From a virus, in the IMG/VR virus record IMGVR_UViG_3300029705_000088: 64,000 nt of DNA. One strand, given 5' to 3'. The position numbers and the translations under genes were made by a program. The notes under the pieces were generated by a model, which searched no databases, was not told the origin of the DNA, and saw only the letters and a list, made by a program, of their open reading frames with translations. This document shows, piece after piece, positions 10,061-59,215 of this stretch; position 1 is the first letter of the stretch, and every line of letters starts with the position of its first letter.

Positions 10061-10162
10061 AGAAAAGAGGAAAATAAAATATGTTTAATGATTTTTCTGT
10101 CCAGATTCAGTCCGATGAAATGTATGAAGTTCTTATTGAAATGTGGAAACGAGAGGTTGAAA

Positions 10163-43063: not shown

Positions 43064-43626
43064 CAATTATTTTAATGTTAATGGGTTCAATGCTCTATCT
43101 TATTATTAGAATGTTAATAGATTTTGCAGAGGACGATTTAGATACTAAAATAAAAAAAGCAAATGAGGCAGTTGATTTAATAATGAATAAACCTTTAAAA
43201 ATTTCATTTGAAAGATTTAAAAGTCTATATACAATGAATCCAAAAGCTTGGAATATTGAATCTGAAAGTATTGTAAAATATAGTTATGATACAAAAGAAA
43301 CTCAATGGAGTCCTATGCTTAATGACTATAAAGAATATACTGTACCAAAACATCAATATTTTGAATTTGGATATTTTGATTCTTTTAAATACACAAGATG
43401 GCGTAAAAAGCAATTAGCAATGTATCCTGAAGAGTTAGTAGAAGCATTCCAGAAAGACATAGATAATTATAAAGAAAAAGCAGCAAAAGAATTAGAAAAT
43501 CAAGTAAAACGAATTGAACAATATATGGATTGTTATGATGATAATGATGAACAATGGAAGGAGAATTTAAAAAATGTCTTACTGCGGATTTGTAACCGAA
43601 TTGAAGAACGTAAGAAAGCACAGTAA
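43057..43626 (+). CDS. hypothetical protein
   Basis: ORF overlapping the neighbouring genes by a few codons. Confidence 0.45.
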   Translation: MLTIILMLMGSMLYLIIRMLIDFAEDDLDTKIKKANEAVDLIMNKPLKISFERFKSLYTMNPKAWNIESESIVKYSYDTKETQWSPMLNDYKEYTVPKHQYFEFGYFDSFKYTRWRKKQLAMYPEELVEAFQKDIDNYKEKAAKELENQVKRIEQYMDCYDDNDEQWKENLKNVLLRICNRIEERKKAQ

Positions 43627-44980
43627 TGCTGACCGATTGCTGCTTGGTGATTGTTTTGGTAATACTGTTTGCGTTGGTTTAAATTACACTGAAGGTCAGT
43701 TAGGAGTATATTTCCCCTGCGATGGCCAGCTTTCCGAAGAATTTGCGAAGGCAAATAATCTTTTACGACTTAAAGATGAAAATGGTCATTCCATTCCTGG
43801 CGGCGGATACATGGACCCTGATAAGAGAAATGTAACCGCAATTAAGCTTCGTGGTGAAAAATCTGATGGTCTTTTCCTCCCTCTTGATTGCCTTAAACCT
43901 TTTGGTGATATTACCAAGCTTCATGCTGGTGACCATATTGATGTTTTTAATGGGCATGAAATTTGTAAAAAATATATTCCTAAGTCTAATAAGCGTAATT
44001 CTGCACCTTCTGGTGTAAATAAGAGAACTCGTAAGCGCGCAATGATTGCGCAAGTTCCTACTTTTTACGAACATAAAGATACTGAACAGCTCGCGTACAA
44101 TCTTGAAGCTTTCAAGCCGGGTGATTATATTGAAATTACTTTGAAGATGCACGGAACTAGTCAGAGAACTGGTAATCTTCCTGTAATTACTTATAAGAGA
44201 AATTGGTTTGATAAGTTATTTAATCTTGAAGGTAAGCCTGTTTCCAATAGAGAATGTATTTCTGGTACTCGCCGCACTGTGCTCCATTCTTATGATGGTG
44301 GATATTATGGTGATAATGAATTCAGAGAAAAGTACAATCGTTTCTTTAATGGAAAACTTTGGAAAGGTGAAACTGTTTACTATGAAGTAATTGGTTTTAC
44401 TGATAAGGGTGTTCCGATTATGAGTGACTGTAGTAATGCTAAAACCAAAGACGAAGAGTTTATTAAGCAGTATGGTGAAACTACTAGATTCTCCTATGGT
44501 TGTCGCCCAGATGGTGATGAATCTCAAATGTATACCAATGAAGAAAATAGTATTTGGTCTGTATCTTCTATCTATGTATATCGTATGACTATGGTAAATG
44601 AAGATGGTGATGTAGTAGAATATACCCCTGATTTTATGCGTTATCGTTGTGAGCAGATGGGTGTAAAATGCGTTCCTGTATTCTGGTCTGGTATTATCCC
44701 CGAAAATCCTGCGTCCGCAGATGATGATACCATTACTGCTGGAGAGTGGGTAAAGAATAAGGCAGAACAGTTCTATGATGGACCTGACCCTATTGGTAAG
44801 ACTCATGTGCGTGAAGGTGTTGTTGTAAGAATTATTAATCGTCCGATTTTTACTGCTTACAAACATAAGAATTTTAATTTTAAGGTGCTTGAAGGTATTG
44901 TAAAAGCCGATGCTGAAGCACCTGATATGGAAGAAGCAGAGGTATTAGTTGAGGAGGAAAATCTTGAGATTAACAACTAA
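43574..44980 (+). CDS. ATP-dependent RNA ligase (Rnl2/Rnl5-like nucleotidyltransferase fold with N-terminal domain)
   Basis: Motif I lysine in the context LKMHGTSQRTG (compare T4 Rnl2 EKIHGTN), preceded by an extra N-terminal domain of about 180 aa. Confidence 0.5.
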   Translation: MSYCGFVTELKNVRKHSNADRLLLGDCFGNTVCVGLNYTEGQLGVYFPCDGQLSEEFAKANNLLRLKDENGHSIPGGGYMDPDKRNVTAIKLRGEKSDGLFLPLDCLKPFGDITKLHAGDHIDVFNGHEICKKYIPKSNKRNSAPSGVNKRTRKRAMIAQVPTFYEHKDTEQLAYNLEAFKPGDYIEITLKMHGTSQRTGNLPVITYKRNWFDKLFNLEGKPVSNRECISGTRRTVLHSYDGGYYGDNEFREKYNRFFNGKLWKGETVYYEVIGFTDKGVPIMSDCSNAKTKDEEFIKQYGETTRFSYGCRPDGDESQMYTNEENSIWSVSSIYVYRMTMVNEDGDVVEYTPDFMRYRCEQMGVKCVPVFWSGIIPENPASADDDTITAGEWVKNKAEQFYDGPDPIGKTHVREGVVVRIINRPIFTAYKHKNFNFKVLEGIVKADAEAPDMEEAEVLVEEENLEINN

Positions 44981-46697: not shown

Positions 46698-46883
46698 ATG
46701 TATTGTACAGACACACAGGAAATATATTGTTATAATGATAACAAATGGTTTTTAGTAGATAAATATAATAATTCTAATGTGGGAATAAAAGATAAAGAAA
46801 CTAAACCATTAATTTGTAAATGCTGTGGTGGTCAAATGGATAATCAATATTATTGTTCATTTTGTGATACACATTATATTTAA
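46698..46883 (+). CDS. small zinc-ribbon protein
   Basis: Two CxxC pairs. Terminator at 46885-46908. Confidence 0.4.
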   Translation: MYCTDTQEIYCYNDNKWFLVDKYNNSNVGIKDKETKPLICKCCGGQMDNQYYCSFCDTHYI

Positions 46884-46884
46884 G

Positions 46885-46908
46885 GAGCGAAAACATCGCT
46901 CCTTTTTT
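46885..46908 (+). terminator. rho-independent terminator
   Basis: ggagcga-aaac-atcgctcc hairpin plus T6. Confidence 0.55.
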
Positions 46909-46950
46909 GATTTTTATAAAAAAATATGATATAATATATATAGAAAATAA
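46907..46950 (+). promoter_or_regulatory. conserved phage promoter (drives Thg1-like / NAD operon)
   Basis: TTGATT at 46907, TATAAT at 46930. Confidence 0.55.
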
Positions 46951-46953
46951 AAA

Positions 46954-47817
46954 ATGAAAGGAAATAATATGATGCCTGTACATGATGACCTCGGGACTCG
47001 CATGAAAGAATTCTATGAACAAGTCCCCAAGTTTCGTTTGACACGCCGCACTCCTGTAGCAATTCGTCTTGATGGTAAAGCATTTCATACCTTTACTAAA
47101 GGTTTTAAGAAACCGTTTGATGAAGTGTTGGGAAAAGCAATGCGAGATACTATGAAATATCTTTGTGAAAATATTCAAGGTTGTGTACTTGGTTATACGC
47201 AATCGGATGAAATTACTTTAATTTTAATTGATTATCAAACATTGACAACAGATGCTTGGTTTAATTATGAAATTCAAAAGATGTGCTCTATCGCCGCTTC
47301 TATGGCAACTATGGCTTTTAATAAGTTTTTTAAAACTGAAGTTGATAAATTTTATTATAATCATGTTTTTCCCAATGACCCTCAAGTAGAATATTATCAA
47401 GCATATCGCGATTCGGAGTATAAAGGCGCAATGTTTGATGCCCGTTGTTTTAATATTCCAAAAGAAGAAGTAGCTAATCTAATCTATTGGCGTCAGCTTG
47501 ACGCTTCTCGCAACTCCATCCAGATGGTTGGCCAAGCTAATTTCTCTCACAAAGAGCTTCAGAACAAATCTTGTAATGACATTCAAGATATGCTAATGCT
47601 TCAGAAAAGTATTAATTGGAATGACTATCCAACTCATTTAAAACGTGGTGCTTGTTGCATTAAAGTTCCTGATAAAATTGAATTTATTGAACATGAATCT
47701 GAATGGGGTGGCCCAGTCCAAGTTGCGCAAAGACACTGGAAATGGGAAATTGATTTGAATATTCCTATTTTTAAAGGCGAAGATAGAAATTATATTGAAC
47801 AATTTATTTATGTATAA
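46954..47817 (+). CDS. Thg1-like 3'-5' nucleotidyltransferase (tRNA-His guanylyltransferase family)
   Basis: RLDGKAFHTFTKGF and GYTQSDEITLIL match the Thg1 catalytic blocks (RIDGKKFHEF; AFGESDEYSFIL). Confidence 0.5.
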   Translation: MKGNNMMPVHDDLGTRMKEFYEQVPKFRLTRRTPVAIRLDGKAFHTFTKGFKKPFDEVLGKAMRDTMKYLCENIQGCVLGYTQSDEITLILIDYQTLTTDAWFNYEIQKMCSIAASMATMAFNKFFKTEVDKFYYNHVFPNDPQVEYYQAYRDSEYKGAMFDARCFNIPKEEVANLIYWRQLDASRNSIQMVGQANFSHKELQNKSCNDIQDMLMLQKSINWNDYPTHLKRGACCIKVPDKIEFIEHESEWGGPVQVAQRHWKWEIDLNIPIFKGEDRNYIEQFIYV

Positions 47818-47829
47818 GAGGTAAAATAT

Positions 47830-48363
47830 ATGGAAAAGATTATTATTGTAGTTGATATGCAGAATGATTTTATTAATGGCTCTCTTGGAACTCCAGAAGC
47901 TCAAGCTATTGTTCCTAAGATGGCAAAAATGCTTAATGAAATTGAAGATAATGTAACAGTAATTTTTACTAAAGATACTCATTATGATGATTATCTTAAT
48001 ACGCCAGAAGGAAAGAAGTTGCCTGTGCCGCATTGTATTAAGGATACTGAAGGTTGGAATATTCCCGATGAATTGACTGCACCATTCTGTTATTCTCCTT
48101 TGGTAATTGAAAAACCCACTTTTGGCTCTCTGGAACTCATGGATTATATTAAAGATATTGCCAATGATTATAATTGGGATGTAGAGCTTCAATTTTGCGG
48201 CCTTTGTACTGATATCTGCGTAGTTTCTAATGTGCTTGCCGCCAAGATATTTTTCCCAGATATTAAAATTAGTGTATTGGCAGATATGTGCGCTGGTGTA
48301 ACTCCTGAGAAGCATGAAGCCGCTCTTGAAACTATGAGAAGTTGCCAAATTGAGGTAATTTAA
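47830..48363 (+). CDS. pncA: nicotinamidase / isochorismatase-family hydrolase
   Basis: IIVVDMQNDFINGSLG N-terminus and a catalytic Cys region, as in PncA. Confidence 0.55.
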   Translation: MEKIIIVVDMQNDFINGSLGTPEAQAIVPKMAKMLNEIEDNVTVIFTKDTHYDDYLNTPEGKKLPVPHCIKDTEGWNIPDELTAPFCYSPLVIEKPTFGSLELMDYIKDIANDYNWDVELQFCGLCTDICVVSNVLAAKIFFPDIKISVLADMCAGVTPEKHEAALETMRSCQIEVI

Positions 48364-48364
48364 T

Positions 48365-48709
48365 ATGAATGAAGAACTCAAACGAATTTTAAACGCTAAA
48401 AACATTGAAGAGAAATTAAATGAAGTAAAAAAAGCAGTAGAAATTGCTGAAGAAATTCAAAATGGTAAATTTATATATTGTAAAAAATGTGATGATTATT
48501 ATTTAAGTAAATCTTTTTTTACAGAACAAGAAATAATTGAAGAAAATGTATGTGTTTATTCTGACCCAAATGGTAGTAGTGGAGATGAGTATAAAAAGCA
48601 AAAGGTAAGATATACTTATAAAATTTGTCCAAAAGGATGTAAGCATACTGTAAACAGAGAAGAACATTGGCTTGAATCTAATCCAAATCGCATGCCACAG
48701 TTTGATTAA
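48365..48709 (+). CDS. zinc-ribbon protein
   Basis: CxxC...CxxC motif. Confidence 0.4.
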   Translation: MNEELKRILNAKNIEEKLNEVKKAVEIAEEIQNGKFIYCKKCDDYYLSKSFFTEQEIIEENVCVYSDPNGSSGDEYKKQKVRYTYKICPKGCKHTVNREEHWLESNPNRMPQFD

Positions 48710-48722
48710 GAGGTGTTTATTA

Positions 48723-49031
48723 ATGGGTAGTCCAGAATATGCTTATAAGCAAATGTTAAGAGAAATTCTTAAACAGTTTAACCGAGCTTCGCCTCTTCCA
48801 GAAAATGAATTAGTATATGCAACATGTATTGTTAATAAAAATGTGGAAGAATTAGAGACTTTAGTAAAAGAAGCATTTCCAGACAATATGACATATAAAC
48901 TATTTATGGCTGGTGTGGGTATGGCGCATTGGATTGAACATGAAAATATAGACCAAATAAATGCTGGCGCAGGTATGATTGAAGAAATATATAAATTGTT
49001 AGGAATTATAGAACCGGAGGAAAAAGAATGA
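48723..49031 (+). CDS. hypothetical protein
   Basis: ATG at 48723 with RBS aagaggtg. The ORF-track start at 48672 overlaps the previous gene. Confidence 0.4.
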   Translation: MGSPEYAYKQMLREILKQFNRASPLPENELVYATCIVNKNVEELETLVKEAFPDNMTYKLFMAGVGMAHWIEHENIDQINAGAGMIEEIYKLLGIIEPEEKE

Positions 49032-49576
49032 CTAATGTAATTTTGTTTAGAGCGCAACCTTTTCATAATGGACATTTATATATGGTAAAAAAAGCTCTTA
49101 GTGATGGTTTAATTAATAATAATGATGTTCATATTTTTATCGGTAGTGCTGATAAATCTGGAACTATTAGAAATCCTATTCCTATTAATGAACGATTATC
49201 TTTGGTAAAAGGTTCTATTTATCAAGAAATAAAATCTGATTTTCATAAGCATATTTTTATTCATGCCCTAAATGACCAAAATGATGAAGGTCATAATACT
49301 CATGAATGGGGCGAATATTTATATAATAATATGATAAATAAAACTTTTGATGAATTTCTAACACTTTATTATATTGATGAACCAGAAATTCCTCTTAGTT
49401 GGTTTGGCCCGAAAGAAAGAGAGTATATTAGTTTTAAATTTATTCCTCGGGTTCATAATATTAGCGGAACTGACGTGCGGTTTGCTATTAAACACGATGA
49501 ATTGGAAAGCTTGCGCAAGATGGTTCCTGAGTATGTTTATGCTCATAGAGAAGAAATTAAGAGGTACTTAAAATAA
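49028..49576 (+). CDS. nicotinamide/nicotinate mononucleotide adenylyltransferase (NadM/NadD-type cytidylyltransferase fold)
   Basis: FRAQPFHNGHLYMV matches the (H/T)xGH nucleotidyltransferase motif of the NMNAT family. Confidence 0.5.
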   Translation: MTNVILFRAQPFHNGHLYMVKKALSDGLINNNDVHIFIGSADKSGTIRNPIPINERLSLVKGSIYQEIKSDFHKHIFIHALNDQNDEGHNTHEWGEYLYNNMINKTFDEFLTLYYIDEPEIPLSWFGPKEREYISFKFIPRVHNISGTDVRFAIKHDELESLRKMVPEYVYAHREEIKRYLK

Positions 49577-49750
49577 TGTTTTTTAAAAAACGCTATTATA
49601 AAATTATTTATGAGTGGTTTGGTGATAAAAAATATGGCATATATTTAGCAAGGAATGCTGAAGGAGCCATTAAACAATTAAAAAAAGACCACTGTTGCGC
49701 CGTCCCCCTTTCTATTGAAATAATTTATGATATGGATGTATAAAAATAAA

Positions 49751-49776
49751 GGTTCTGTATATACAGAACCTTTATT
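49751..49776 (+). terminator. rho-independent terminator
   Basis: ggttctgtatatacagaacc palindrome plus T-rich stretch. Confidence 0.5.
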
Positions 49777-49820
49777 GATTTTTATAAAAAAATATGATAT
49801 AATATATATAGAAAATAAGA
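49775..49820 (+). promoter_or_regulatory. conserved phage promoter
   Basis: TTGATT at 49775, TATAAT at 49798. Confidence 0.55.
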
Positions 49821-49838
49821 AAAAAGGAATTTATAAAA

Positions 49839-50357
49839 ATGAATAACTTTCAGAAATTTTTTGGTCATTTGCGCACAGTAAATAAACATCGTAGAATGGT
49901 GCGTAAACTTTGTTTTAAATGCGGTCTTTATTGGCAAGGTCTTACACATGACCTTTCCAAGTATTCTCCTGTAGAGTTTTGGAATGGAGTAAAGTATTTT
50001 ACTGGTACTGCTTCACCTCATGTGGGTGAGCGAAAAGAAAAAGGCTACTCAGATGCTTGGCCGCATCATCATAATCGCAATAAGCATCATGGAGAATATT
50101 GGTGGGATATTGATTCTAATGGTAAGTCTTGTCCTATGCCAATGCCTGATAAATATTTTAAGGAAATGATTTGCGATAGAGTTGCCGCATCTATGATTTA
50201 TCTTGGAAAGAAATATACAGACAAATCTCCTTATGATTATTATATGTCTCATAAAGATGAAAATCAATTCCATAAAAATACAGGAGAACGTTTAGAAGTA
50301 GAATTATTTTATATTGGTGAATATGGTTTTGATAATTGGGTAAAGGATTATAGATAA
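49839..50357 (+). CDS. hypothetical His-rich protein
   Basis: ORF after promoter 49775-49820. HHHNRNKHHGEYWWD segment. Confidence 0.4.
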   Translation: MNNFQKFFGHLRTVNKHRRMVRKLCFKCGLYWQGLTHDLSKYSPVEFWNGVKYFTGTASPHVGERKEKGYSDAWPHHHNRNKHHGEYWWDIDSNGKSCPMPMPDKYFKEMICDRVAASMIYLGKKYTDKSPYDYYMSHKDENQFHKNTGERLEVELFYIGEYGFDNWVKDYR

Positions 50358-50828
50358 ATGATTAAACATATTAAATGTGATATCTTTGAATCCGGCGCAG
50401 ATGTAATTTGTCATCAAGTTAATTGTCAAGGCGTTATGGGTAGTGGTGTTGCTAAGCAAGTAAAAGAAAGATATCCTCATGTTTTTGAAGCATATAAGGT
50501 AATATGTATTCTATCTAAACGAAATGGGAAATCTTTACTTCAAAACGTACAAAGAGTGCAGATTAATGAAAAACAAGTTATTTTAAATTTGTTTGCTCAA
50601 GATAAATATGGATACGATGGACATTGTTATACAAATTATGACGCACTTAAAGCGTGTTTAATTAAAATCAATGATATGTACAAAAATACCAATAAAACTA
50701 TTGCTTTTCCTTATCTTATGTCTTGCGCTCGTGGCGGTGGAGACTGGAATATTGTATATAAAATGATTGAAGATATTTTTAAAGATTATGATGGAGATGT
50801 GTTAATTTGTGAATATGATGGAAAGTAA
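50358..50828 (+). CDS. Macro-domain protein (ADP-ribose binding/processing)
   Basis: N-terminal IKCDIFESGADVICHQVNCQGVMGSGVAKQV matches the Macro-domain core. Confidence 0.55.
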   Translation: MIKHIKCDIFESGADVICHQVNCQGVMGSGVAKQVKERYPHVFEAYKVICILSKRNGKSLLQNVQRVQINEKQVILNLFAQDKYGYDGHCYTNYDALKACLIKINDMYKNTNKTIAFPYLMSCARGGGDWNIVYKMIEDIFKDYDGDVLICEYDGK

Positions 50829-51210
50829 AGAAGTGTATAGAATTGATATTGGCGATTATTTTATTAAAAATGATACACTCTATAAAAGAATTCATGAAAC
50901 TTTTGAGGCCGATAAAGATGAAGTCTGTGCGATTAATTTAAATACTGGTAAACAAACGTGTATTTATATGCTTGATTTAGTAATACCAGTAGATATTGAA
51001 TATTGTATTACAGTTAAAAATGCTCAAGAAGCTATTTTAAAGTATATTGGCTCAGAAGATTTTTTAAAAAAATTAGAAAGTTGTAATACAGAATCGGGAT
51101 TTGAAGCTGGTGCTATGTGGGGAATGGCTATCGCAGCAATGCTAATAGATACTAAATGTGATAAATTTATAAATATAAAGGTAAAAAATAATGAAACTTT
51201 ATGTAATTAA
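50809..51210 (+). CDS. hypothetical protein
   Basis: ORF in the operon. Confidence 0.4.
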   Translation: MNMMESKEVYRIDIGDYFIKNDTLYKRIHETFEADKDEVCAINLNTGKQTCIYMLDLVIPVDIEYCITVKNAQEAILKYIGSEDFLKKLESCNTESGFEAGAMWGMAIAAMLIDTKCDKFINIKVKNNETLCN

Positions 51211-51454
51211 TATCAAAGAATACGATTACGATTGTTATACTGATTTTGTAGTTGCCGCAGATACTATTCCAGAAGCACTTGAATATATTTATCAAAAAGT
51301 TTGCGAAAAAAGTGATACACAAGGAAATAAATATTATGGTGATATTCCTTATTATCTTCGCTCTTCAAATATGGTTATAGCATGTCTTGGTGATTTTGAG
51401 CCTTATGATAAACTTGATAATCATGTTATTAGTTATGGATATTATAATGCTTAA
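51191..51454 (+). CDS. hypothetical protein
   Basis: ORF in the operon. Confidence 0.4.
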   Translation: MKLYVINIKEYDYDCYTDFVVAADTIPEALEYIYQKVCEKSDTQGNKYYGDIPYYLRSSNMVIACLGDFEPYDKLDNHVISYGYYNA

Positions 51455-51476
51455 AGGAAAATGGTAAAAGAAAACG

Positions 51477-51659
51477 ATGACAACCGTTAAAGAACTTAAA
51501 GAACTTATTAAAGATTTACCTGATGATACTCTTATTATTGTAAGAGTTGTTAATGATTATGGGAAGGATGCAAATATTCAAATCCATCCAGTGAGCAGAA
51601 AAGACTGTGGTTATTATAAATACGATAAAAATGGTAAAGAAAGTTTAGTGTTTCTCTAA
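51477..51659 (+). CDS. hypothetical small protein
   Basis: ORF in the operon. Confidence 0.35.
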   Translation: MTTVKELKELIKDLPDDTLIIVRVVNDYGKDANIQIHPVSRKDCGYYKYDKNGKESLVFL

Positions 51660-51670
51660 AGGAGATTAAA

Positions 51671-52036
51671 ATGCTTATTGTTAAATATTGTCCTGATGGA
51701 GAGCTTTTTCCAGACCATATTGCCGATAAATTAGTTAAAAATAAAATTAATGAATATTTGGCAAAATATAAACCATATGATAAAAATATGATTATCAAAG
51801 TGGCAAATGAATTAGCATTTAATTATTTTGTATTATTTACTATGCAAGAATTGATTGATTATGATGATATTAATATTTATTATAATGAACGTCATTGTGT
51901 AGTAGACAAATATCTTGGTGTAAGATATAAAGATAATGATTATGCTGAAGAAGGTTTATTTGCAAAATGTTTGGAACAAATTCTTAAAATTGGGTTTGAT
52001 AATTTAAAGAAAGATAAAAGAAAGGAAAATAACTAA
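51671..52036 (+). CDS. hypothetical protein
   Basis: ORF in the operon. Confidence 0.4.
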   Translation: MLIVKYCPDGELFPDHIADKLVKNKINEYLAKYKPYDKNMIIKVANELAFNYFVLFTMQELIDYDDINIYYNERHCVVDKYLGVRYKDNDYAEEGLFAKCLEQILKIGFDNLKKDKRKENN

Positions 52037-52038
52037 TT

Positions 52039-53262
52039 ATGATGAAACTTAGTCCTATTATTGTATCGCTTCTTGATACTGACCTTTATAAATTTAATAT
52101 GAATCAGGTAATGTTCCATAAGCATACCAATCTTAATGGTACATATATTTTTAAATGTCGCAATAAAGATGTGCGTTTTACTAAAGCAATGGTAGATGAA
52201 ATCAGCGAACAGATTAATCATCTTTGTACTCTGACTTTTACTGATGAAGAGCTTGATTATCTCGCATCTCTGAGATTTATCAAAAAGGACTACATTGAAT
52301 TCCTGCGGCTCTGGCACCCTATTCGCCAGTATGTAAAGGTCTGGCTTGAAACACATGAAGATAAGGAAATTACTGATAACACAGAAGGCGAACTTCATAT
52401 TGAGGTAAATGGTCCGCTCTTTAGTGCTATGCAGTTTGAAATCTATCTTCTTGAAATTGTGAATGAAGTATATTTCCGCATGAAGTATGATTATCTTGCT
52501 CTTGTAAAGAGCGCAAGAGAAAAACTTATGTTTAAGATTAATCAGTTCCGCATGGAAATTTATGATTTCAAGTTCGCAGAATTCGGTTGCCGCAGACGTC
52601 TTAGCCGCGAATGGCAGGATTATGTTCTTGGCGAACTGCTTGCTACCGGACACTGTGTTGGCACATCCAATGTATTTCTCGCTATGAAGTATGGTTGTAA
52701 ACCTATTGGCACCTACGCGCATGAATATGTCCAGATGTATCAGGGTGTGCCGGGCGTAACTCTTGCATATACTAATAAGATGGCAATGGAAGAGTGGTTT
52801 GATGAATATCAGGGTGATAATGGTACTGCTCTTACGGATACACTTGGAACTGACCTGTTCCTTATGGATTTCAATAAGCTTCAGGCAATGTGCTATACTG
52901 GTGTTCGCCATGATAGTGGAGACCCTATTGAATGGGGTGAAAAGATTATTGCTCATTATGAAAAGCTTGGTATTGACCCAAAAACTAAGACACTTCTCTT
53001 TAGTGACAGTTTAAATTTTGATAGAGCACAGAAAATTTATAATCATTTCAAAGATAGAGTTAATGTAAGTTTTGGTATTGGTACCTATCTTAGTAATGAT
53101 ACTAATGTTGAACCTTTAAATATTGTTATTAAACTTCAGTATGTTAATGGTCATCCAGTAGCAAAGCTTAGTGACGTTCCGGGCAAGACTATGTGTCAGG
53201 ATGAAAATTATGCTGAATATTTGAAAAACGCTGTAAATTATAGATTGAAAGAAGGTATTTAA
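52039..53262 (+). CDS. pncB: nicotinate phosphoribosyltransferase
   Basis: N-terminal IIVSLLDTDLYKFNMNQVMFH is the PncB hallmark. Length about 407 aa. Confidence 0.6.
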   Translation: MMKLSPIIVSLLDTDLYKFNMNQVMFHKHTNLNGTYIFKCRNKDVRFTKAMVDEISEQINHLCTLTFTDEELDYLASLRFIKKDYIEFLRLWHPIRQYVKVWLETHEDKEITDNTEGELHIEVNGPLFSAMQFEIYLLEIVNEVYFRMKYDYLALVKSAREKLMFKINQFRMEIYDFKFAEFGCRRRLSREWQDYVLGELLATGHCVGTSNVFLAMKYGCKPIGTYAHEYVQMYQGVPGVTLAYTNKMAMEEWFDEYQGDNGTALTDTLGTDLFLMDFNKLQAMCYTGVRHDSGDPIEWGEKIIAHYEKLGIDPKTKTLLFSDSLNFDRAQKIYNHFKDRVNVSFGIGTYLSNDTNVEPLNIVIKLQYVNGHPVAKLSDVPGKTMCQDENYAEYLKNAVNYRLKEGI

Positions 53263-53265
53263 ATT

Positions 53266-54114
53266 ATGAGTACTATTTTTAATACAGATTATGTGTTTGA
53301 TGCTGAACTTCAGAAAAATAAAATTATTGATTGGATTAAGGAATATTTTGCTGATAATGGACCGAATTCTCCAGCAGTAATTGGAATGTCTGGCGGTAAG
53401 GATTCTGCGGTTTGTGCTGCTCTTTGTACCGCCGCTCTTGGAAAAAATAGAGTATATGGTATTATTATTCCCGATGGTAATATGCGAAAATGTGATGTAG
53501 ATTGTGCTAAAGATGTCTGTAATATTCTTGGAATTAATTATTTTACAGTAAATATTGGCGACACAACTAAAGCCATTTATAACGCATTTGATAATACATT
53601 TTGTGATTATTGTCCCACACCAATTGATTATAAAATTAATTTCAAGGATAATTCTGTTGTTACAACAAATTTACCCGCACGAATTCGTATGACTACTCTT
53701 TATGCAATTGCGGCAGCCCTTGAAAATGGAGGTAGAGTAGTAAATACTTGTAATTTATCTGAAGATTATATTGGATATTTTACAAAGTATGGCGATGGCG
53801 TAGGTGATTTTAGTCCTTTAGCAGATTATACTGCTACAGAAGTTTGTCAAATTGGCTATGCTCTTGGTCTACCGGATTATATTGTAGGCAAAGCTCCCGA
53901 TGATGGTATGTGCGGTAAAACTGATGAAGAAAATTTTGGATTTACTTATAAAGAGTTGGATAATTATATTAGATATAGAATTATTCCAGAAGATGTAAAT
54001 ACTCTTGCCGCAATTAAACATCTTCATAGCATTAGTAGACATAAAGATAATATTAATATTCCTTTTGTCGGCATTATGTCCAAGATGAATGGAGTTTTTA
54101 AAAATGGGAAATAG
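53266..54114 (+). CDS. nadE: NH3-dependent NAD+ synthetase
   Basis: PP-loop SGGKDSAV, plus length and context. Confidence 0.6.
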   Translation: MSTIFNTDYVFDAELQKNKIIDWIKEYFADNGPNSPAVIGMSGGKDSAVCAALCTAALGKNRVYGIIIPDGNMRKCDVDCAKDVCNILGINYFTVNIGDTTKAIYNAFDNTFCDYCPTPIDYKINFKDNSVVTTNLPARIRMTTLYAIAAALENGGRVVNTCNLSEDYIGYFTKYGDGVGDFSPLADYTATEVCQIGYALGLPDYIVGKAPDDGMCGKTDEENFGFTYKELDNYIRYRIIPEDVNTLAAIKHLHSISRHKDNINIPFVGIMSKMNGVFKNGK

Positions 54115-54550
54115 AATTGATTGTTTTAATGGAGAATATGCTTTTTTAAGTAATTTTTATAATTCACCATTTGAATATGATGGAATTATTTATCCTACTA
54201 ATGAACATTTCTTTCAAGCAATGAAAACATCTGATATAGAAGAACGAAAAAGAATCGCCGCAGCCGCTACTCCAGGTAGAGCTAAATATTTAGGCCGAGG
54301 TGTAAAATTACGCGCTGACTGGGATACTGCTCGTGTAATGGTAATGAAACTGGGTCTTTATCTTAAATTTACAACTTCATTAGAATTACGAGATAAACTT
54401 ATTGCTACTGGAGATAGTGAATTAATTGAAGGTAATACTTGGAATGATACGTATTGGGGTGTATGTAATAATATTGGACACAATATGCTTGGAAAATGTC
54501 TAATGGAGTTAAGAGAATTTCTACAAAGTTGTCCTGAAGCTAATTTGTAG
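54089..54550 (+). CDS. NADAR (YbiA-like) domain protein
   Basis: FNGEYAFLSNFY...YPTNEHFFQAMK, DUF1768/NADAR signature. Confidence 0.55.
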   Translation: MEFLKMGNRIDCFNGEYAFLSNFYNSPFEYDGIIYPTNEHFFQAMKTSDIEERKRIAAAATPGRAKYLGRGVKLRADWDTARVMVMKLGLYLKFTTSLELRDKLIATGDSELIEGNTWNDTYWGVCNNIGHNMLGKCLMELREFLQSCPEANL

Positions 54551-54594: not shown

Positions 54595-55083
54595 ATGGAT
54601 AAGAGTAAAATTATTGTAATTTGTTTAGCAATTTTTCTTATTTTTGTCGGGTGTTTTACTGTTGGTGTTATTAATAACCAAAGTGAGCTTCCAACTATTG
54701 ATACTACAATTAATGAATTAAAAAGTGATTTTAATGCTGAAATTTTAGGATGTATTCTTACAAAAGACTGGGATGATAATCCTAGTCTTGGTGTTAAAAT
54801 TAAATGGACTAATAATAGTACAGAGACTTGTTCTTATTGGTTAAATTTAATGAATGAAGCTTTTCAAAATGGAGTTGAATTGGAAGTTACTTGGCCCGAT
54901 GCTGATAATGAATATTATAAATATTATGAAAATAGTGACCTTGATTTAAGACCAGGCGCTTCACTTGAAGTTATGGTTTTCTTTAAACTTCGTGATACAA
55001 AAAATCCTGTAGAAATTGAAATTAGTGAAACATTTAGTTTAGATAATATTATTATTACAACCGGAACATATAATTTTAAATAA
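54595..55083 (+). CDS. secreted/membrane-anchored protein
   Basis: N-terminal hydrophobic helix. Terminator at 55087-55120. Confidence 0.4.
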   Translation: MDKSKIIVICLAIFLIFVGCFTVGVINNQSELPTIDTTINELKSDFNAEILGCILTKDWDDNPSLGVKIKWTNNSTETCSYWLNLMNEAFQNGVELEVTWPDADNEYYKYYENSDLDLRPGASLEVMVFFKLRDTKNPVEIEISETFSLDNIIITTGTYNFK

Positions 55084-55086
55084 AAT

Positions 55087-55120
55087 AAGCCCTTCTATTT
55101 AGAATAGAAGGGCTTATTTG
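55087..55120 (+). terminator. rho-independent terminator
   Basis: aagcccttctatt-tag-aatagaagggctt hairpin. Confidence 0.55.
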
Positions 55121-55160
55121 ATTTTATTATAAAAATATGATATAATATATATATAAAATA
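55118..55160 (+). promoter_or_regulatory. conserved phage promoter
   Basis: TTGATT at 55118, TATAAT at 55141. Confidence 0.55.
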
Positions 55161-55447: not shown

Positions 55448-56131
55448 ATGAATATATATGCTGTATCTGATTTACATGGTCAGATTGATTTATATAAGCA
55501 AATTAAAACATTTCTTAAAAAAAATGATATTGTATATTGTCTTGGAGATTGCGGAGACCGCGGTCCCGCAAGTTGGGAATTAATTAAAGCAGTTGCATGC
55601 GACCCGCAATTTATTTATCTTAAAGGAAACCATGAAGATATGCTTGTAAAAGCTATGTGTGAGTATGGTAGAGATGAATATATGGGAAAAAATTGCCATC
55701 TTCTTTTCTCTAATGGAGGAGAATCAACTTTATTTGGTTGGATTACTGATGGCGCCGATATGGGATGGATGAATTATTTATCTAAACTTCCAACAATTAA
55801 ATCTTATTATAATCAATATCAAGATATTGAAATTATAATGTGCCATGCTGGTTATTCCAACTATAATGATACTATTCCTTGTGAAGAGGATTTACTTTGG
55901 AGTAGAGAACATTTTCTTGATGTCCCTCCAGAAGGCAGAACACTTATGGTTCATGGACACACTCCAATCCCTTATCTTGCCGAAGACCTTGGTATAAGAG
56001 AAGCTGAATTTGAAGGTGCTTTCTGGTATTGTAATGATAAAAAAGTATGTATTGATTGTGGAGCTTTTGCTACTGGAATGACAGTACTTTTAGATTTAGA
56101 TACTTTTGATGAACATATTTTTCAAATTTGA
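55448..56131 (+). CDS. calcineurin-like metallophosphoesterase (PP2B/ApaH-like)
   Basis: DLHG, GDCGDRG and GNHE motifs. Confidence 0.55.
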   Translation: MNIYAVSDLHGQIDLYKQIKTFLKKNDIVYCLGDCGDRGPASWELIKAVACDPQFIYLKGNHEDMLVKAMCEYGRDEYMGKNCHLLFSNGGESTLFGWITDGADMGWMNYLSKLPTIKSYYNQYQDIEIIMCHAGYSNYNDTIPCEEDLLWSREHFLDVPPEGRTLMVHGHTPIPYLAEDLGIREAEFEGAFWYCNDKKVCIDCGAFATGMTVLLDLDTFDEHIFQI

Positions 56132-56409: not shown

Positions 56410-56641
56410 AGCAATGGCGCGTCAAAATGTAAAAAGTAATACTCATGATTTTTATTGTACAAAATGTGGAAATAAGGGTATTCCAATAGTAAGAAAACGT
56501 GGATGTGAACGAGAAAAATTTCATAAAAAGAAATTATTTTGTTTATATTGCGGCGATGAAATAAATCATATTGAATGTCGTTCAATGGAAGAAGTTGAAC
56601 AATTTAAAATTGATTTTGCGAAAGGAGTATATAATGAATAA
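56396..56641 (+). CDS. zinc-ribbon protein
   Basis: CTKCGNKG...CLYCGDE. Confidence 0.4.
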   Translation: MIRTKAMARQNVKSNTHDFYCTKCGNKGIPIVRKRGCEREKFHKKKLFCLYCGDEINHIECRSMEEVEQFKIDFAKGVYNE

Positions 56642-57158
56642 AACTCTCTATTTACTTTGCGGCATTCCTGGTTCAGGAAAAACTACTTGGGTGAAAAATC
56701 AGCAGGAATATTTAGATAATAGTATTCATATCAGCAGAGATGAAATTCGTTTTTCTCTTTTGAAAGATAATGATGATTATTTTGCTAAAGAAAATTTAGT
56801 GTTTAATACATTTATTAATAAAATTAACGAAAGTATTAAATCTACTGATAAAGAAATTATTTTTGTTGATGCTACTCATTTAAATGAGGCCGCAAGGAAT
56901 AAGGTGTTGGATAAACTCAATTTATCTTCTATTTCTGTTGTCCCTGTAAATTTTAATCTTTCAGTAGATACTTGTGTTTATCGTAATTCATTTCGTTCTG
57001 GGAGAGCAAATGTTCCTGATAATGTAATTAAAAATATGTTTAATAAATATAATCCTGCTAATTATGGAGAAAAACATAATTATACTTATATTTTAAATAT
57101 TAATGAAGATAATAATTATATGATTTCAATTGATAAAGGAGTGGATGAAAATGAATAA
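56634..57158 (+). CDS. P-loop polynucleotide-kinase-like kinase
   Basis: LLCGIPGSGKTTW P-loop immediately at the N-terminus, as in T4 Pnk / AAA_33 kinases. ATG at 56634. Confidence 0.5.
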   Translation: MNKTLYLLCGIPGSGKTTWVKNQQEYLDNSIHISRDEIRFSLLKDNDDYFAKENLVFNTFINKINESIKSTDKEIIFVDATHLNEAARNKVLDKLNLSSISVVPVNFNLSVDTCVYRNSFRSGRANVPDNVIKNMFNKYNPANYGEKHNYTYILNINEDNNYMISIDKGVDENE

Positions 57159-57711
57159 TATCTGGATTACAAGTGACCTCCACATTGGGCATGATAGAGA
57201 ATTTGTGTGGGGACCTCGCGGATTTACTTGCATTGCTCACCATGATGAATCTATTGTAGAAAATTTTAATAATACAGTAAATGATGAAGATGATGTATAT
57301 ATTCTTGGTGATTTAATGCTTGGTGATAATAATTATGGTATCGGAATGCTTAAAAATCTTAAAGGCAGACTACATATTGTAAGAGGAAACCATGACACAA
57401 ATCCACGTTGGGAACTTTATAAAAATCTTCCTAATGTAGTTGAAATGGGAGATGCTCTTCGTTTTAAAAGTGAAGGATATAATTTTTATTGTTCTCATTA
57501 TCCCACTATTACTTCTAATTTTGAAAAAGATAGTCTAAAACAGATTGAAATTAATCTTTATGGACATACACATCAGCAGACAGATTTCTATGAAGATAGA
57601 CCTTTTATGTTTCATTGTGGAGTTGATTCTTTACTCAATTTTCCTATTAATATTGAATCAGTAATTAATAGATGTAAAAATGAAGTAGAAAAATGTATTA
57701 AATATCTTTAA
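57150..57711 (+). CDS. calcineurin-like metallophosphoesterase
   Basis: ITSDLHIGHD, GDLMLGDNN and GNHD motifs. ATG at 57150, overlapping the end of the kinase gene. Confidence 0.55.
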
Positions 57712-57751: not shown

Positions 57752-59215
57752 ATGTTAGAATTTATTACTTCCGCATCTTTTCTTATCCCCGTTATTGGAA
57801 TTGTTGCTCTTCTTCTCATTCTTATGAGTGGTTATGTGAAAGCTCCTCCGGATATGGCATATGTAATTTCTGGTTTGAGAAAGAAGCCAAGAATTCTTAT
57901 TGGTAGAGCCGGCATTAAAATTCCTTTCTTTGAACGTCTTGACAAGCTTGAACTTGGTGTAATTCAGATTGATGTAAAAACTTCATCTGCGGTTCCAACA
58001 GCAGAATACATTAATGTACGAGTTGATTCCAATGTAAATGTTCGTATTGGTCAGACCCCCGAAATGATGGAACTTGCTTGCCAGAACTTCCTTGGAGTAA
58101 AGAAAAATGTAATTAATGAAAAGATTTCTTGTCTGCTTGAAGGTAATGTGCGAGAAATTGTAGGCCAGATGAAACTTACTGATATGGTAAGTAATAGAAA
58201 GGCATTCTCTGAAAAGGTATAGGAAAACGCAGTTCCCGACCTTAAGCGTCTTGGACTTGAATTAATTTCATTTAACGTTCAGAATTTCGTAGATGATAAT
58301 GATGTTATCAATAATCTTGGTATTGATAACGTAGAACAAATTCGTAAGAAGGCTTCTATTGCTAAGTCTGACGCACAGAGAGAAATTGCTATTGCTGAGG
58401 CAGAAAACGCCAAGAGCGCCAATGACGCTAAGGTTGCGGCCGCTGAAGAAATCGCCGTCCGCAATAACGCTCTTGAAATTCGTCAGGCTGAACTGAAGAA
58501 GAGTGCAGATACGCAGAAGGCGCAGGCTGAAGCTGCTATGGAGATTGAAGCAGAGAATCAGCGCAAGCTGAAGAATATTGCTTCTACTGACGCAGAAATC
58601 GCTAAGGCTGAACGTGAGGCAGAACTTAGACAGAAGGAAATTGAACTGCGTGAGTATGAACTTGATGCTCTTGTTCGTAAGCAGGCAGATGCTGATAAGT
58701 ATGCCGCAGAGCAGAAAGCAGCCGCTGAGCTTGTAGTTCGTCAGAGAAAAGCAGAAGCTGAACGCTATGAAAGAGAGCAGAAAGCTGAAGCAGATAAGTA
58801 TGCGGCAGCTCAGGAAGCAGAAGCTATTAGAGCTAAGGCTGAAGCAGATAAGTATGCTGCTCTGGCTGAAGCGGAAGGTATTGCGGCTATTAAGAAGGCA
58901 GAAGCAGAAGGTATTCGTGCTACCGGTGTTGCTGAAGCCGAAGGTATTGATAAGAAGGCTGAAGCACAGAAGAAGATGGGTGAAGCTTCTATCCTGGAAA
59001 TGTATCTTAACGCTCTCCCCGAAGTAGTTAAGAATGCGGCAGCTCCTCTCTCTGCTGTTGATTCCATTACCATGTACGGCTCTGATGGAACCACAAAGCT
59101 TGTTAGTGATGTAATGCAGACCAGTGACCAGATTATTAAGGCTCTTACCGAATCTACCGGTATTGATATTAAGTCAGTAATTTCTGGTTATCTTGGTGGT
59201 AAGGCTGCTCAGTAA
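57752..59215 (+). CDS. flotillin-like SPFH protein, one in-frame TAG
   Basis: N-terminal TM helix, SPFH core and a long Ala/Glu/Lys coiled-coil. TAG at 58220-58222 with frame continuity to 59215, checked by hand translation. Terminator at 59223-59254. Confidence 0.55.

What the first reader, a model, noticed from the sequence alone, without database searches (positions are those of the whole stretch)
47830..54550. Complete Preiss-Handler NAD+ salvage pathway plus Macro and NADAR domains, a likely NAD+ reconstitution anti-defence module
**Seen in sequence.** One promoter block (46907-54550) carries:
- PncA nicotinamidase (47830-48363)
- an NMN/NaMN adenylyltransferase with HxGH (49028-49576)
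- a Macro domain (50358-50828)
- PncB nicotinate phosphoribosyltransferase (52039-53262)
- NadE NAD synthetase with SGGKDS (53266-54114)
- a NADAR/YbiA-like protein (54089-54550)

**Established knowledge.** Defence systems such as Thoeris, DSR, SIR2-HerA, SEFIR and some CBASS effectors abort infection by degrading NAD+ to ADPR or cADPR plus nicotinamide. Phages counter this with NAD+ reconstitution pathways (NARP1/NARP2) that use different enzymes. Macro and NADAR domains process ADP-ribose and ADP-ribosyl adducts.

**Inference.** A four-step nicotinamide to nicotinate to NaMN to NaAD to NAD route encoded as one phage cassette would be a third solution to the same problem. It is combined here with ADP-ribose-processing enzymes.
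Basis: partly seen in the sequence, partly recalled or inferred. Interest (0 to 1): 0.8.

Follow-up and report, generated by a model that had tools for sequence, protein, structure and literature searches.

The report
Phage nicotinamide-to-NAD+ salvage gene cassette
A large phage of gut Firmicutes carries intact genes for all four steps that turn nicotinamide back into NAD+, a kind of cluster already described by genome analysis in jumbo phages but never tested, and it could help the phage survive bacterial defences that destroy NAD+.

Summary
All six ORFs exist on the + strand and belong to the named families. The catalytic residues I checked are intact: PncA D9/K95/C130 plus metal ligands D49/H51/H68, PncB H228, the adenylyltransferase H13xGH16 and ISGTDVR, and NadE SGGKDS.

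- The adenylyltransferase is of the NadM/archaeal NMNAT type, not NadD.
- The cassette is two transcription units, not one. Each starts with the same 29-nt promoter, with a hairpin terminator at 49745-49776 between them.
- In 26 related phage loci the conserved core is PncA+PncB. NadE with either a NadM-like or a true NadD enzyme is frequent, and one locus has a NadD-NadE fusion.
- A DUF5662 HD-fold protein is embedded in 18 of the 26 loci.
- Macro and NADAR occur only in the nearest relative. They resemble the orphan-antitoxin DNA de-ADP-ribosylases AdfM and AdfN, not parts of the NAD+ pathway.

The idea is not new. Preiss-Handler clusters in "NAD-jumbo phages", with a proposed counter-defence role, were published in 2024, and NARP3 now exists. 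No paper I found tests the deamidating route.

Verdict: real, coherent, a new member of a known kind. A defence-related role is plausible but inferred.

The parts
46907..46935 (+). Promoter of unit 1: exact 29-mer TTGATTTTTATAAAAAAATATGATATAAT (-35 TTGATT, extended -10 TGnTATAAT), immediately after hairpin 46882-46904
   Evidence: 17 matches to the pattern in the window against 0.29 expected, all on the + strand
46954..47817 (+). Thg1-like tRNA(His) guanylyltransferase / 3'-5' polymerase. First gene of unit 1. Not part of the NAD+ pathway.
   Evidence: PF04446, 102.5 bits; present in L020, L012 and L013
47830..48363 (+). PncA nicotinamidase (nicotinamide to nicotinate + NH3). Triad D9/K95/C130; metal ligands D49/H51/H68.
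48365..49031 (+). Two small ORFs of unknown function (48365-48709 and 48672-49031)
   Evidence: no Pfam or PHROG match; absent from all related loci
49028..49576 (+). NadM/archaeal-type pyridine-mononucleotide adenylyltransferase. R8, H13xGH16, R48, I145-SGTDVR-R151.
49745..49803 (+). Hairpin terminator (49745-49776, 14-bp stem) overlapping the second copy of the 29-nt promoter (49775-49803). This is the boundary between unit 1 and unit 2.
49839..50357 (+). DUF5662, a predicted HD-superfamily metal-dependent phosphohydrolase (H37-D38 and other invariant His/Asp). Embedded in the NAD cluster of most related phages. Substrate unknown.
50358..50828 (+). Macro domain protein, DarG/AdfM-like at the N-terminus (N22, GVMGSG). 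The catalytic Lys position of Taq DarG (K80) is not in register (FAQDKYG).
50809..52036 (+). Four small ORFs of unknown function (50809-51210, 51191-51454, 51477-51659, 51671-52036)
   Evidence: the first two are conserved only in L020
52039..53262 (+). PncB nicotinate phosphoribosyltransferase, class I ATP-coupled type. GTYAHE with H228.
53266..54114 (+). NadE, NH3-dependent NAD+ synthetase. PP-loop SGGKDS at residues 42-47.
54089..54550 (+). NADAR domain protein (likely start at 54104). E39/K46 pair with the same 7-residue spacing as T4 AdfN E36/K43.
54595..55083 (+). DUF5067 protein with an N-terminal hydrophobic segment. Last gene of unit 2. No predicted role in the pathway.
55083..55119 (+). 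17-bp-stem hairpin terminator that ends unit 2, followed by the next promoter copy at 55118-55146

Best explanation
The cassette is a phage-encoded deamidating NAD+ salvage route. It is expressed from two identical sigma-70-type promoters that host RNA polymerase should recognise.

The steps are:
1. PncA converts nicotinamide to nicotinate.
2. PncB joins nicotinate to PRPP, at the cost of ATP, to give NaMN.
3. The NadM-like adenylyltransferase makes NaAD.
4. NadE amidates NaAD with ammonia to NAD+.

The enzyme identities and intact active sites are shown. The substrate choice of the adenylyltransferase, and so the order of the last two steps, is inferred.

Nicotinamide is the product that SIR2, TIR, SEFIR and RES-type NADases all release. 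The route would therefore rebuild NAD+ whatever happens to the ADP-ribose half, and so blunt NAD+-depleting abortive infection. This is inferred by analogy with NARP2.

PncA+PncB is the conserved core. A plausible reason (my inference) is that bacteria generally carry their own NadD and NadE (established knowledge), so the phage copies of the last two steps would only add capacity.

Macro and NADAR are separate, recently added passengers. Most likely they remove ADP-ribose from nucleic acid, as the phage factors AdfM and AdfN do. DUF5662 is a conserved fifth gene of unknown substrate.
For: - Family scores and catalytic residues for all four enzymes.
- Conservation: PncA lies within about 3 kb of PncB in 18 of 19 PncB-seeded phage loci. 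NadE and an adenylyltransferase are in the same cluster in most loci.
- In loci L010 and L012-L014 the adenylyltransferase slot is filled by a NadD-type enzyme (nicotinate-nucleotide adenylyltransferase models; scored for L010 at 102 bits, below the 112 cut-off). In L011 NadD is fused to NadE and scores above the curated cut-offs. The L011 NadE is 49% identical to the window's. This argues for the NaMN to NaAD to NAD order.
- Compact operons with overlapping genes in L025, L027 and L021.
- Both units carry the same 29-mer promoter, which is 17-fold repeated in the window.
- The phage recodes TAG to Gln in many other genes, yet no cassette gene has an internal TAG. This fits expression before the suppressor tRNA acts.
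- Precedent: NARP2, also a nicotinamide+PRPP route, overcomes NAD+-depleting systems. The same role was proposed for jumbo-phage NAD+ clusters.
Against: - No experiment exists for any phage PncA/PncB route.
- The adenylyltransferase family is characterised as NMN-preferring (established knowledge of NadM and archaeal NMNAT). NaMN use is assumed.
- The route costs PRPP, about three ATP and ammonia per NAD+. It is slower than NARP1 or NARP2, which is a poor fit for an emergency response.
- The host is unknown, so it cannot be said that the host lacks these enzymes or carries NADase defences.
- The neighbourhood also looks like an RNA-repair and general auxiliary-gene region (RNA ligase, Thg1, kinase, phosphoesterases). 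Position alone therefore does not mark the cassette as counter-defence.
- The closest relative, L020, has PncB split into two ORFs. Either the gene is dispensable there or this is an assembly error.
Confidence: 0.55

Rival explanations
1. General auxiliary metabolism. The cassette simply raises NAD+ supply for a large phage's own replication, repair and redox needs, for example NAD+-dependent ligase or ADP-ribosyltransferases encoded elsewhere in the genome. It has no specific link to NADase defences.
For: Li et al. 2024 report that more than half of NAD-jumbo phages carry NAD+-dependent ligases and other NAD+ consumers. KVP40-type NARP2 makes excess NAD+ even without a defence system. The window's surroundings are auxiliary and RNA-repair genes.
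Against: No NAD+-consuming enzyme was found in the 64-kb window. The almost invariable presence of PncA (18/19 loci) points to nicotinamide, the NADase product, as the input rather than environmental nicotinate. The two readings do not exclude each other.
Confidence: 0.3
2. The input and output are the same but the order is of the Francisella type. NadE acts as an NMN synthetase (NaMN to NMN) and the NadM-like enzyme then adenylates NMN to NAD+.
For: The adenylyltransferase is NadM/archaeal type. The second-best solved relative of NadE is the F. tularensis enzyme 3FIU, at 111.5 bits against 117.3 for the best. That 3FIU is the NMN synthetase working with NadM is from my own knowledge (Sorci et al. 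2009, listed as reference 186).
Against: Related phages put a NadD-type enzyme, which acts on NaMN, in the same slot. One fuses it to a NadE that is 49% identical to the window's. The specificity determinants could not be checked because the paper is not held.
Confidence: 0.2
3. Macro, NADAR and DUF5662 are working parts of NAD+ recycling. They would process ADPR-1''-phosphate, cyclic ADPR signals or ADPR so that the ribose-phosphate half is also recovered, in the manner of Adpp in NARP1-AP.
For: A Poa1p-like Macro phosphatase extends NARP1. The window's Macro matches phrog_335, labelled 'phosphatase', at 145 bits. Homologs in Bacillus phages are annotated Poa1p-like. DUF5662 sits inside the cluster in 18 of 26 related loci, in shuffled gene orders, and has an HD phosphohydrolase-like fold. 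L017 adds a PRPP-synthetase-like gene.
Against: A nicotinamide-only route has no use for ADPR. Clear Macro and NADAR homologs are absent from all related clusters except L020; L012 and L014 gave only marginal Macro matches about 7 kb away. Macro homologs occur in 2473 phage records irrespective of NAD genes. In 80 Clostridia genomes DUF5662 has no NAD gene within 8 kb. The NadD-type clusters lack DUF5662.
Confidence: 0.12

Closest known systems
Preiss-Handler gene clusters of 'NAD-jumbo phages' (Li et al. 2024, Microbiome, PMC11662467; e.g. Kuafu_71 pncB-nadD-nadE)
   Same: Phage-borne clustered pncB and nadE with an adenylyltransferase, in large uncultured gut phages. The same proposed purposes: independent NAD+ synthesis and possible resistance to NAD+ depletion.
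   Different: Here PncA is part of the cluster, so the input is nicotinamide. The adenylyltransferase is NadM-like rather than NadD. A DUF5662 gene is embedded. The promoters, Shine-Dalgarno sites and closest DUF5662 homologs point to a Firmicutes host, whereas the Kuafu clade is predicted to infect Bacteroidota. The 2024 description is annotation only.
NARP2 (Nampt + Nmnat; Vibrio phage KVP40 NadV/NatV; Osterman et al. 2024)
   Same: Rebuilds NAD+ from nicotinamide + PRPP + ATP by classical salvage chemistry. Does not depend on the ADPR half. Shown to overcome NAD+-depleting defences.
   Different: NARP2 is two non-deamidating steps through NMN. This cassette is four steps through nicotinate, NaMN and NaAD. 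It uses a NAPRTase (TIGR01514, 431 bits) instead of Nampt, and needs more ATP plus ammonia.
NARP1 and NARP1-AP (Adps + Namat, with or without the Macro phosphatase Adpp)
   Same: Phage NAD+ reconstitution. A Macro domain gene can sit in the operon.
   Different: No PRPS-like Adps and no Nampt-family Namat in the cassette. The chemistry does not use ADPR. The Macro here is closer to DarG than to Poa1p.
NARP3 (PnuC transporter + NadR; Yan et al. 2026)
   Same: A phage NAD+-restoring pathway that contains a HIGH-motif adenylyltransferase.
   Different: NARP3 imports nicotinamide riboside. It does not recycle nicotinamide. No PnuC or NadR is present here.
Bacterial PncA-PncB-NadD-NadE salvage, and the Francisella PncB-NadE*-NadM variant
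   Same: The same enzyme families and the same net conversion.
   Different: Here the genes are carried by a virus, collected into one co-regulated cassette, and mix a NadM-type enzyme with an otherwise deamidating route.
AdfN (phage NADAR, anti-DarTG1) and AdfM (phage DarG2-like macrodomain, anti-DarTG2)
   Same: The NADAR gene keeps the E/K catalytic pair (E39/K46). The Macro gene keeps the Asn and GVMGxG motifs of AdfM and DarG.
   Different: The NADAR is nearest E. coli YbiA (83 bits) rather than DarG1-type NADARs. The Macro lacks the DarG catalytic Lys in register. No activity data exist.

Membership tests
Deamidating (Preiss-Handler plus PncA) NAD+ salvage pathway | Nicotinamidase with an Asp-Lys-Cys triad and an Asp/His/His metal site | tested here: met
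   Alignment to 1IM5 and 3PL1 gives D9, K95, C130 and D49/H51/H68
Deamidating (Preiss-Handler plus PncA) NAD+ salvage pathway | Nicotinate phosphoribosyltransferase (PncB) above the curated cut-offs, with the conserved His of GT(M/Y)AHE | tested here: met
   PRK05321 497 bits (cut-off 379) and TIGR01514 431 bits (cut-off 269.55). 1YIR 306 bits; GTYAHE with H228.
Deamidating (Preiss-Handler plus PncA) NAD+ salvage pathway | NadD-family NaMN adenylyltransferase | tested here: not met
   The window enzyme matches NadM/archaeal NMNAT models and structures, not NadD. NadD-type genes fill this slot in L010-L014. Activity on NaMN cannot be tested with these tools.
Deamidating (Preiss-Handler plus PncA) NAD+ salvage pathway | NAD+ synthetase with the PP-loop SGGxDS | tested here: met
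   TIGR00552 159 bits (cut-off 63.65). SGGKDS at residues 42-47. Best structures 2E18 and 3FIU.
NARP2 | Nampt (nicotinamide phosphoribosyltransferase) paired with Nmnat | tested here: not met
   The only phosphoribosyltransferase found in the cassette is a NAPRTase equivalog. An Nmnat-like enzyme is present.
NARP1 / NARP1-AP | PRPS-like Adps plus Namat in one operon (Macro phosphatase optional) | tested here: not met
   No PRPS-like or Nampt-family gene in 43.5-58 kb. A PRPS-like gene occurs only in the related locus L017.
NARP3 | PnuC-like transporter plus bifunctional NadR | tested here: not met
   Neither family appears among the ORFs scanned in the window. The rest of the genome was not available.
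NAD-jumbo phage (Li et al. 2024) | Phage genome above 200 kb that encodes every step of at least one NAD+ pathway | tested here: inconclusive
   The pathway is complete. The genome size of this phage is unknown because only 64 kb is given. Contigs carrying related cassettes reach 183-299 kb.
AdfN (phage NADAR DNA ADP-ribosylglycohydrolase) | NADAR fold with the conserved catalytic Glu and Lys (T4 E36/K43) | tested here: met
   PF08719 107 bits. E39 and K46 in EHFFQAMK have the same spacing. Removal of ADP-ribose from guanine cannot be tested with these tools.
AdfM / DarG2 macrodomain | Macro fold with the conserved Asn (PhiKZ N23) and the catalytic Lys (Taq DarG K80) | tested here: inconclusive
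   N22 and GVMGSG align. The K80 column holds Q81, and the nearest Lys is two residues on (FAQDKYG). DarG model 69 bits against a full-length cut-off of 250.
HD-superfamily phosphohydrolase (for DUF5662) | All-helical HD fold with the H...HD...H...D metal-ligand pattern | tested here: inconclusive

The most novel reading that the evidence does not exclude
The cassette is a fourth, experimentally untouched NAD+ reconstitution pathway. Its conserved core would be five genes: PncA, PncB, a NadM-like enzyme, NadE and the HD-fold DUF5662.

On this reading the NadM-type enzyme accepts both NaMN and NMN. The module would then repair NAD+ after glycohydrolase or phosphorylase cleavage, which releases nicotinamide, and also after pyrophosphatase cleavage, which releases NMN.

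DUF5662 would be a new enzyme that handles the ADP-ribose-derived half or ADPR-based immune signals.

The variant in L017 has a PRPS-like gene and no adenylyltransferase. It would hint at a deamido version of NARP1 (nicotinate + ADPR-PP to NaAD).
Probability: 0.15. Interest if true: 0.75.

Novelty: new member of a known kind. Interest (0 to 1): 0.45.

Why it matters
NAD+ depletion is one of the commonest bacterial antiviral strategies. Three phage pathways that rebuild NAD+ have been shown experimentally, and none of them goes through nicotinate.

This cassette and its 26 relatives give a well-defined set of intact genes for testing whether the classical deamidating route also works as counter-defence. 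They come in natural variants: NadM-like, NadD, a NadD-NadE fusion, PncA+PncB only, and one with a PRPS-like gene.

The route needs only nicotinamide. It should therefore be indifferent to what a defence does to the ADP-ribose half, for example aRES, which defeats plain NARP1.

The work also flags DUF5662, a large uncharacterised family of gut Firmicutes, as a gene that phages keep inside their NAD+ operons.

If the cassette only boosts metabolism, the finding is an ordinary auxiliary metabolic gene cluster.

Tried and rejected
- Megablast of the cassette against 50,697 phage records found nothing. This phage has no close sequenced relative among deposited phages.
- The best 'phage' PncB hit, Acinetobacter phage MD-2021a, is bacterial chromosome mislabelled as phage (serB, psd and phoR as neighbours). 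Agrobacterium phage Atu_ph07 has PncB alone.
- I tested whether DUF5662 is an NAD-pathway gene in general:
  - No paper mentions the family.
  - In 80 Clostridia genome loci no PncA, PncB, NadD, NadE or NMNAT lies within 8 kb.
  - The recurrent neighbours are EF-P, Dtd and Xaa-Pro peptidase.
  - Fusion partners are thiouracil desulfurase, HAD phosphatases, a decarboxylase and DMP19.
  - The link to NAD genes is therefore specific to this phage lineage.
- I first read L020 as lacking the Macro gene, because no Pfam hit was on record for it. phmmer showed it is present (292 bits).
- I looked in the window for the extra ~120-aa domain that is fused to PncB in L011 and L017. It is absent.
- Pfam and PHROG scans gave nothing significant for the seven small ORFs in the cassette. 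The few matches were borderline (E about 1e-3) to families of unknown function.
- The paper needed to check NMN-synthetase specificity residues (Sorci 2009) is not held.
- Counts from the generic promoter scan are not above chance (93 against 79 +/- 11). Only the specific 29-mer is significant.
- Searches were input errors.

Full report
**What is there.**

Between 46.9 and 55.1 kb all substantial ORFs lie on the + strand.
- 47830-48363 is an isochorismatase-family protein (95.7 bits).
- 49028-49576 is a HIGH-motif nucleotidyltransferase.
- 50358-50828 is a Macro domain.
- 52039-53262 is PncB: 223 and 109 bits for the two NAPRTase domains in Pfam, and 497 bits on NCBIfam PRK05321 against a cut-off of 379.
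- 53266-54114 is an NH3-type NAD synthetase: 164 bits in Pfam, and 159 bits on TIGR00552 against a cut-off of 63.65.
- 54089-54550 is a NADAR domain (107 bits).

**Catalytic residues.** None is missing.
- PncA was aligned to the P. horikoshii and M. tuberculosis nicotinamidases. It keeps Asp9, Lys95 and Cys130, and the metal ligands Asp49, His51 and His68.
- PncB is 306 bits from P. aeruginosa PncB (1YIR). It keeps GTYAHE with His228.
- NadE has SGGKDS at residues 42-47. Its nearest structures are P. horikoshii NadE (2E18) and the F. tularensis enzyme 3FIU.
- The adenylyltransferase has H13-N-G-H16 and I145-SGTDVR.

**The adenylyltransferase is the weak link, and it is not NadD.**

By sequence it matches only archaeal NMNAT and NadM models, below their curated cut-offs. 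Its nearest structures by sequence are M. jannaschii and M. thermautotrophicum NMNAT and Francisella NadM.

Thirty-eight homologs from metagenomes gave an alignment with invariant R8, Q10-P11, H13, G15-H16, G39-S40-A41, K43, R48-N49-P50, W94-G95 and R151. This is the archaeal NMNAT pattern (established knowledge of that family).

An AlphaFold model built on that alignment has pLDDT 91.5. Its best Foldseek matches in the PDB are Synechocystis NadM (TM 0.74-0.76) and M. thermautotrophicum NMNAT (TM 0.66-0.70). NadD structures rank next.

The step is therefore present. The enzyme class is the one usually associated with NMN, and whether it takes NaMN cannot be read from sequence.

**Related loci.**

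A search of IMG/VR with PncB returned 19 loci at 62-83% identity, on contigs of up to 299 kb. Look-ups through DUF5662 added seven more loci, on contigs of up to 222 kb. Comparing gene content gives four architectures.
- **A:** NadM-like + NadE + DUF5662 + PncB, with PncA wherever the contig extends that far. This is the window, L001, L005-L008, L020-L022 and L025-L028.
- **B:** PncA + NadE + NadD-type + PncB, without DUF5662 (L010-L014). NCBIfam names the L010 protein a nicotinate-nucleotide adenylyltransferase. L011 is a NadD-NadE fusion that scores above the curated NadD cut-offs.
- **C:** PncA + DUF5662 + PncB only (L002-L004, L015, L009, L016).
- **D:** L017, where a PRPP-synthetase-like gene sits in the adenylyltransferase slot.

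The remaining two loci fit none of these. L018 has PncB and PncA only. L019 has PncB and DUF5662.

Three conclusions follow.
1. The clustering is selected, not accidental. Gene order is shuffled between loci, but the same families stay together, often with overlapping stop and start codons (L025).
2. The nearly invariant core is PncA+PncB. This makes sense because bacteria generally carry their own NadD and NadE (established knowledge). A phage then needs only to feed nicotinamide into NaMN.
3. NadD-type enzymes, which act on NaMN, occupy the same slot as the NadM-like gene, and in one case NadD is fused to NadE. This favours the canonical order NaMN to NaAD to NAD+ for the window too. A Francisella-type order (NaMN to NMN to NAD+) is not excluded.

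**Regulation.**

- The exact 29-mer TTGATTTTTATAAAAAAATATGATATAAT, or a near copy, occurs 17 times in the window. All copies are on the + strand, against 0.29 expected by chance.
- Copies lie at 46907, 49775 and 55118. Each sits directly after a strong hairpin: 46882-46904, 49745-49776 and 55083-55119.
- Unit 1 therefore holds Thg1-like, PncA, two small ORFs, the adenylyltransferase and a 55-aa ORF.
- Unit 2 holds DUF5662, Macro, four small ORFs, PncB, NadE, NADAR and DUF5067.
- Identical promoters imply co-regulation. Their sigma-70 form with an extended -10, together with GGAGG-type ribosome binding sites, points to a Firmicutes host and to transcription by host polymerase.
- The closest cellular DUF5662 homologs (47-61% identical) come almost entirely from gut and rumen Clostridia and other Firmicutes, which agrees.

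**Phage identity and recoding.**

The window carries:
- 23 tRNA genes, including a suppressor tRNA with anticodon CTA;
- tail-fibre-like genes with Mtd_N domains;
- a lysin;
- PhoH.

A flotillin-like gene (57752-59215) has one in-frame TAG, which is Gln in the L020 ortholog. Several other genes contain 3-11 in-frame TAGs yet translate into sensible proteins when TAG is read as Gln: a GT2 glycosyltransferase, an amidase and a PIN-PhoH protein.

No cassette gene has an internal TAG. NadE and NADAR end in TAG, and read-through would add only 2 and 12 residues. In recoded phages the recoding is concentrated in late genes (my knowledge of Borges et al. 2022). The cassette is therefore probably expressed early. 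This is an inference.

**Macro and NADAR.**

Clear homologs of both occur only in the nearest relative, L020. Among the other related loci only L012 and L014 gave marginal Macro matches, of about 19 bits and roughly 7 kb from PncB.

*Macro.*
- Its best NCBIfam model is the DarG antitoxin macrodomain (69 bits). Its best structures are M. tuberculosis and T. aquaticus DarG.
- It belongs to phrog_335 (145 bits), a family with homologs in 2473 phage records.
- Aligned with PhiKZ AdfM and the two DarG macrodomains, it keeps Asn22 and GVMGSG. At the position of the DarG catalytic Lys80 it has FAQDKYG, with Gln in that column. Membership of the AdfM/DarG2 class is therefore unresolved.

*NADAR.* It keeps Glu39 and Lys46, with the spacing of the residues shown to matter in T4 AdfN. 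Its nearest structure is E. coli YbiA.

*Reading.* Phage NADARs and a phage DarG2-like macrodomain have been shown to strip ADP-ribose from DNA and defeat DarTG1 and DarTG2. A Poa1p-like Macro phosphatase extends NARP1, but a route that uses only nicotinamide has no need for it. I therefore read the two genes as independent counter-defence passengers, not as parts of the NAD+ pathway.

**DUF5662.**

This gene was not in the finding, but it is the most consistent companion of PncA/PncB after NadE. It is present in 18 of the 26 related loci.
- The family is large: 2680 clusters at 50% identity. The search for close homologs found 1289 proteins, the best 120 of them 69-97% identical to the query.
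- Across a diverse alignment, H17, H37-D38, H77, H83-H84 and D113 are invariant, and H10 is nearly so. This fits a metal-dependent phosphohydrolase.
- In bacteria the family shows no link to NAD genes, and its fusion partners point to nucleotide or RNA metabolism.

Its role in the phage cluster is open.

**Comparison with what is known.**
- Li et al. 2024 named 174 'NAD-jumbo phages'. They described clustered pncB-nadD-nadE, mentioned phage pncA, and proposed that phage-made NAD+ may counter Sir2-type depletion, while noting that this needs experiments.
- Iyer et al. 2021 had already discussed NAD+ synthesis and Macro/NADAR domains in jumbo phages.
- NARP1, NARP2, NARP1-AP and NARP3 are experimentally established.
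- Text searches found no experimental work on a phage PncA/PncB route.

The finding is therefore a well-preserved new member of a kind already known from genome analysis. Its own features are PncA in the cluster, a NadM-type adenylyltransferase, DUF5662, a Firmicutes host and a recoded genome.

**Verdict.**
- Enzyme identities: high confidence.
- A complete nicotinamide-to-NAD+ route: likely.
- Counter-defence as the selected function: plausible, by analogy with NARP2, but untested and not separable here from a general NAD+ boost.
- Interest is moderate.

Noticed in passing
window 57752-59215; also 4153-6771, 16447-17928, 24030-30682 (- strand), 35839-37491, 60095-63069; tRNA at 19204-19298: The phage recodes TAG as Gln. 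A flotillin-like gene has one in-frame TAG that is Gln in the L020 ortholog. Several genes (GT2 glycosyltransferase, tail-fibre-like proteins, amidase lysin, PIN-PhoH) contain 1-11 in-frame TAGs. A suppressor tRNA with anticodon CTA sits in a 23-tRNA array at 7896-20274.
   Followed up: partly
window, 17 sites on the + strand (e.g. 1600, 6768, 7126, 15238, 18013, 38680, 41199, 41295, 46907, 49775, 55118): A 29-nt promoter-like element, TTGATTTTTATAAAAAAATATGATATAAT, is repeated almost exactly 17 times, against 0.29 expected. It often follows a hairpin terminator directly and often precedes tRNA genes.
   Followed up: partly
window 4001-6000: This stretch has only 18% G+C, against about 31% for the window as a whole. 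It holds TAG-rich ORFs, including a GT2 glycosyltransferase.
   Followed up: partly
L017 7962-8801 and 9608-11143 (IMGVR_UViG_3300047567_000036): A PRPP-synthetase-like gene (91 bits, below the cut-off of 113) sits where other loci have the adenylyltransferase. No NMNAT or NadD was found in the 21-kb locus. This may be a deamido analogue of NARP1 (Adps-like + PncB-like + NadE), or simply a PRPP supply.
   Followed up: partly
L011 10001-11572 (C-terminus), L017 9608-11143 (N-terminus), L012/L013 11193-11576 (separate ORF): An uncharacterised domain of about 120 aa is fused to PncB, or encoded next to it, in some related phages. It is absent from the window.
   Followed up: partly
window 43574-44980, 46954-47817, 55448-56131, 56571-57158, 57130-57711: The NAD cassette is embedded in an RNA-repair-like set: RNA ligase, Thg1-like 3'-5' polymerase, a PNK-like P-loop kinase and two metallophosphoesterases. 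The same arrangement is in L027. This suggests a counter to tRNA-cleaving defences.
   Followed up: no
window 33329-35740 and 21804-23321: There is a major-vault-protein-like gene (MVP shoulder and Vault_3 domains) and a TROVE-like gene (DUF2828/DUF7788). An MVP-like gene recurs in L027, and L009 carries a similar-looking 495-aa ORF that I did not scan.
   Followed up: no
window 25155-26282 and 30699-32075 (- strand): The tail-fibre-like proteins have Mtd_N (major tropism determinant) N-terminal domains. Two of the tail-fibre-like proteins, those at 16447-17928 and 24030-26339, share a near-identical C-terminal module. I did not look for a diversity-generating retroelement.
   Followed up: no
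L020 5156-6379: In the closest relative (97% identical DUF5662), PncB is called as two ORFs of 234 and 160 aa. This is a frameshift, a stop codon or an assembly error.
   Followed up: no
L029-L108 (Clostridia genomes): DUF5662 is a widespread chromosomal gene of gut and rumen Clostridia. It lies next to efp, dtd and a Xaa-Pro peptidase gene in about 10 of 80 loci. Elsewhere it is fused to thiouracil desulfurase and HAD phosphatases. No function has been described for it.
   Followed up: partly
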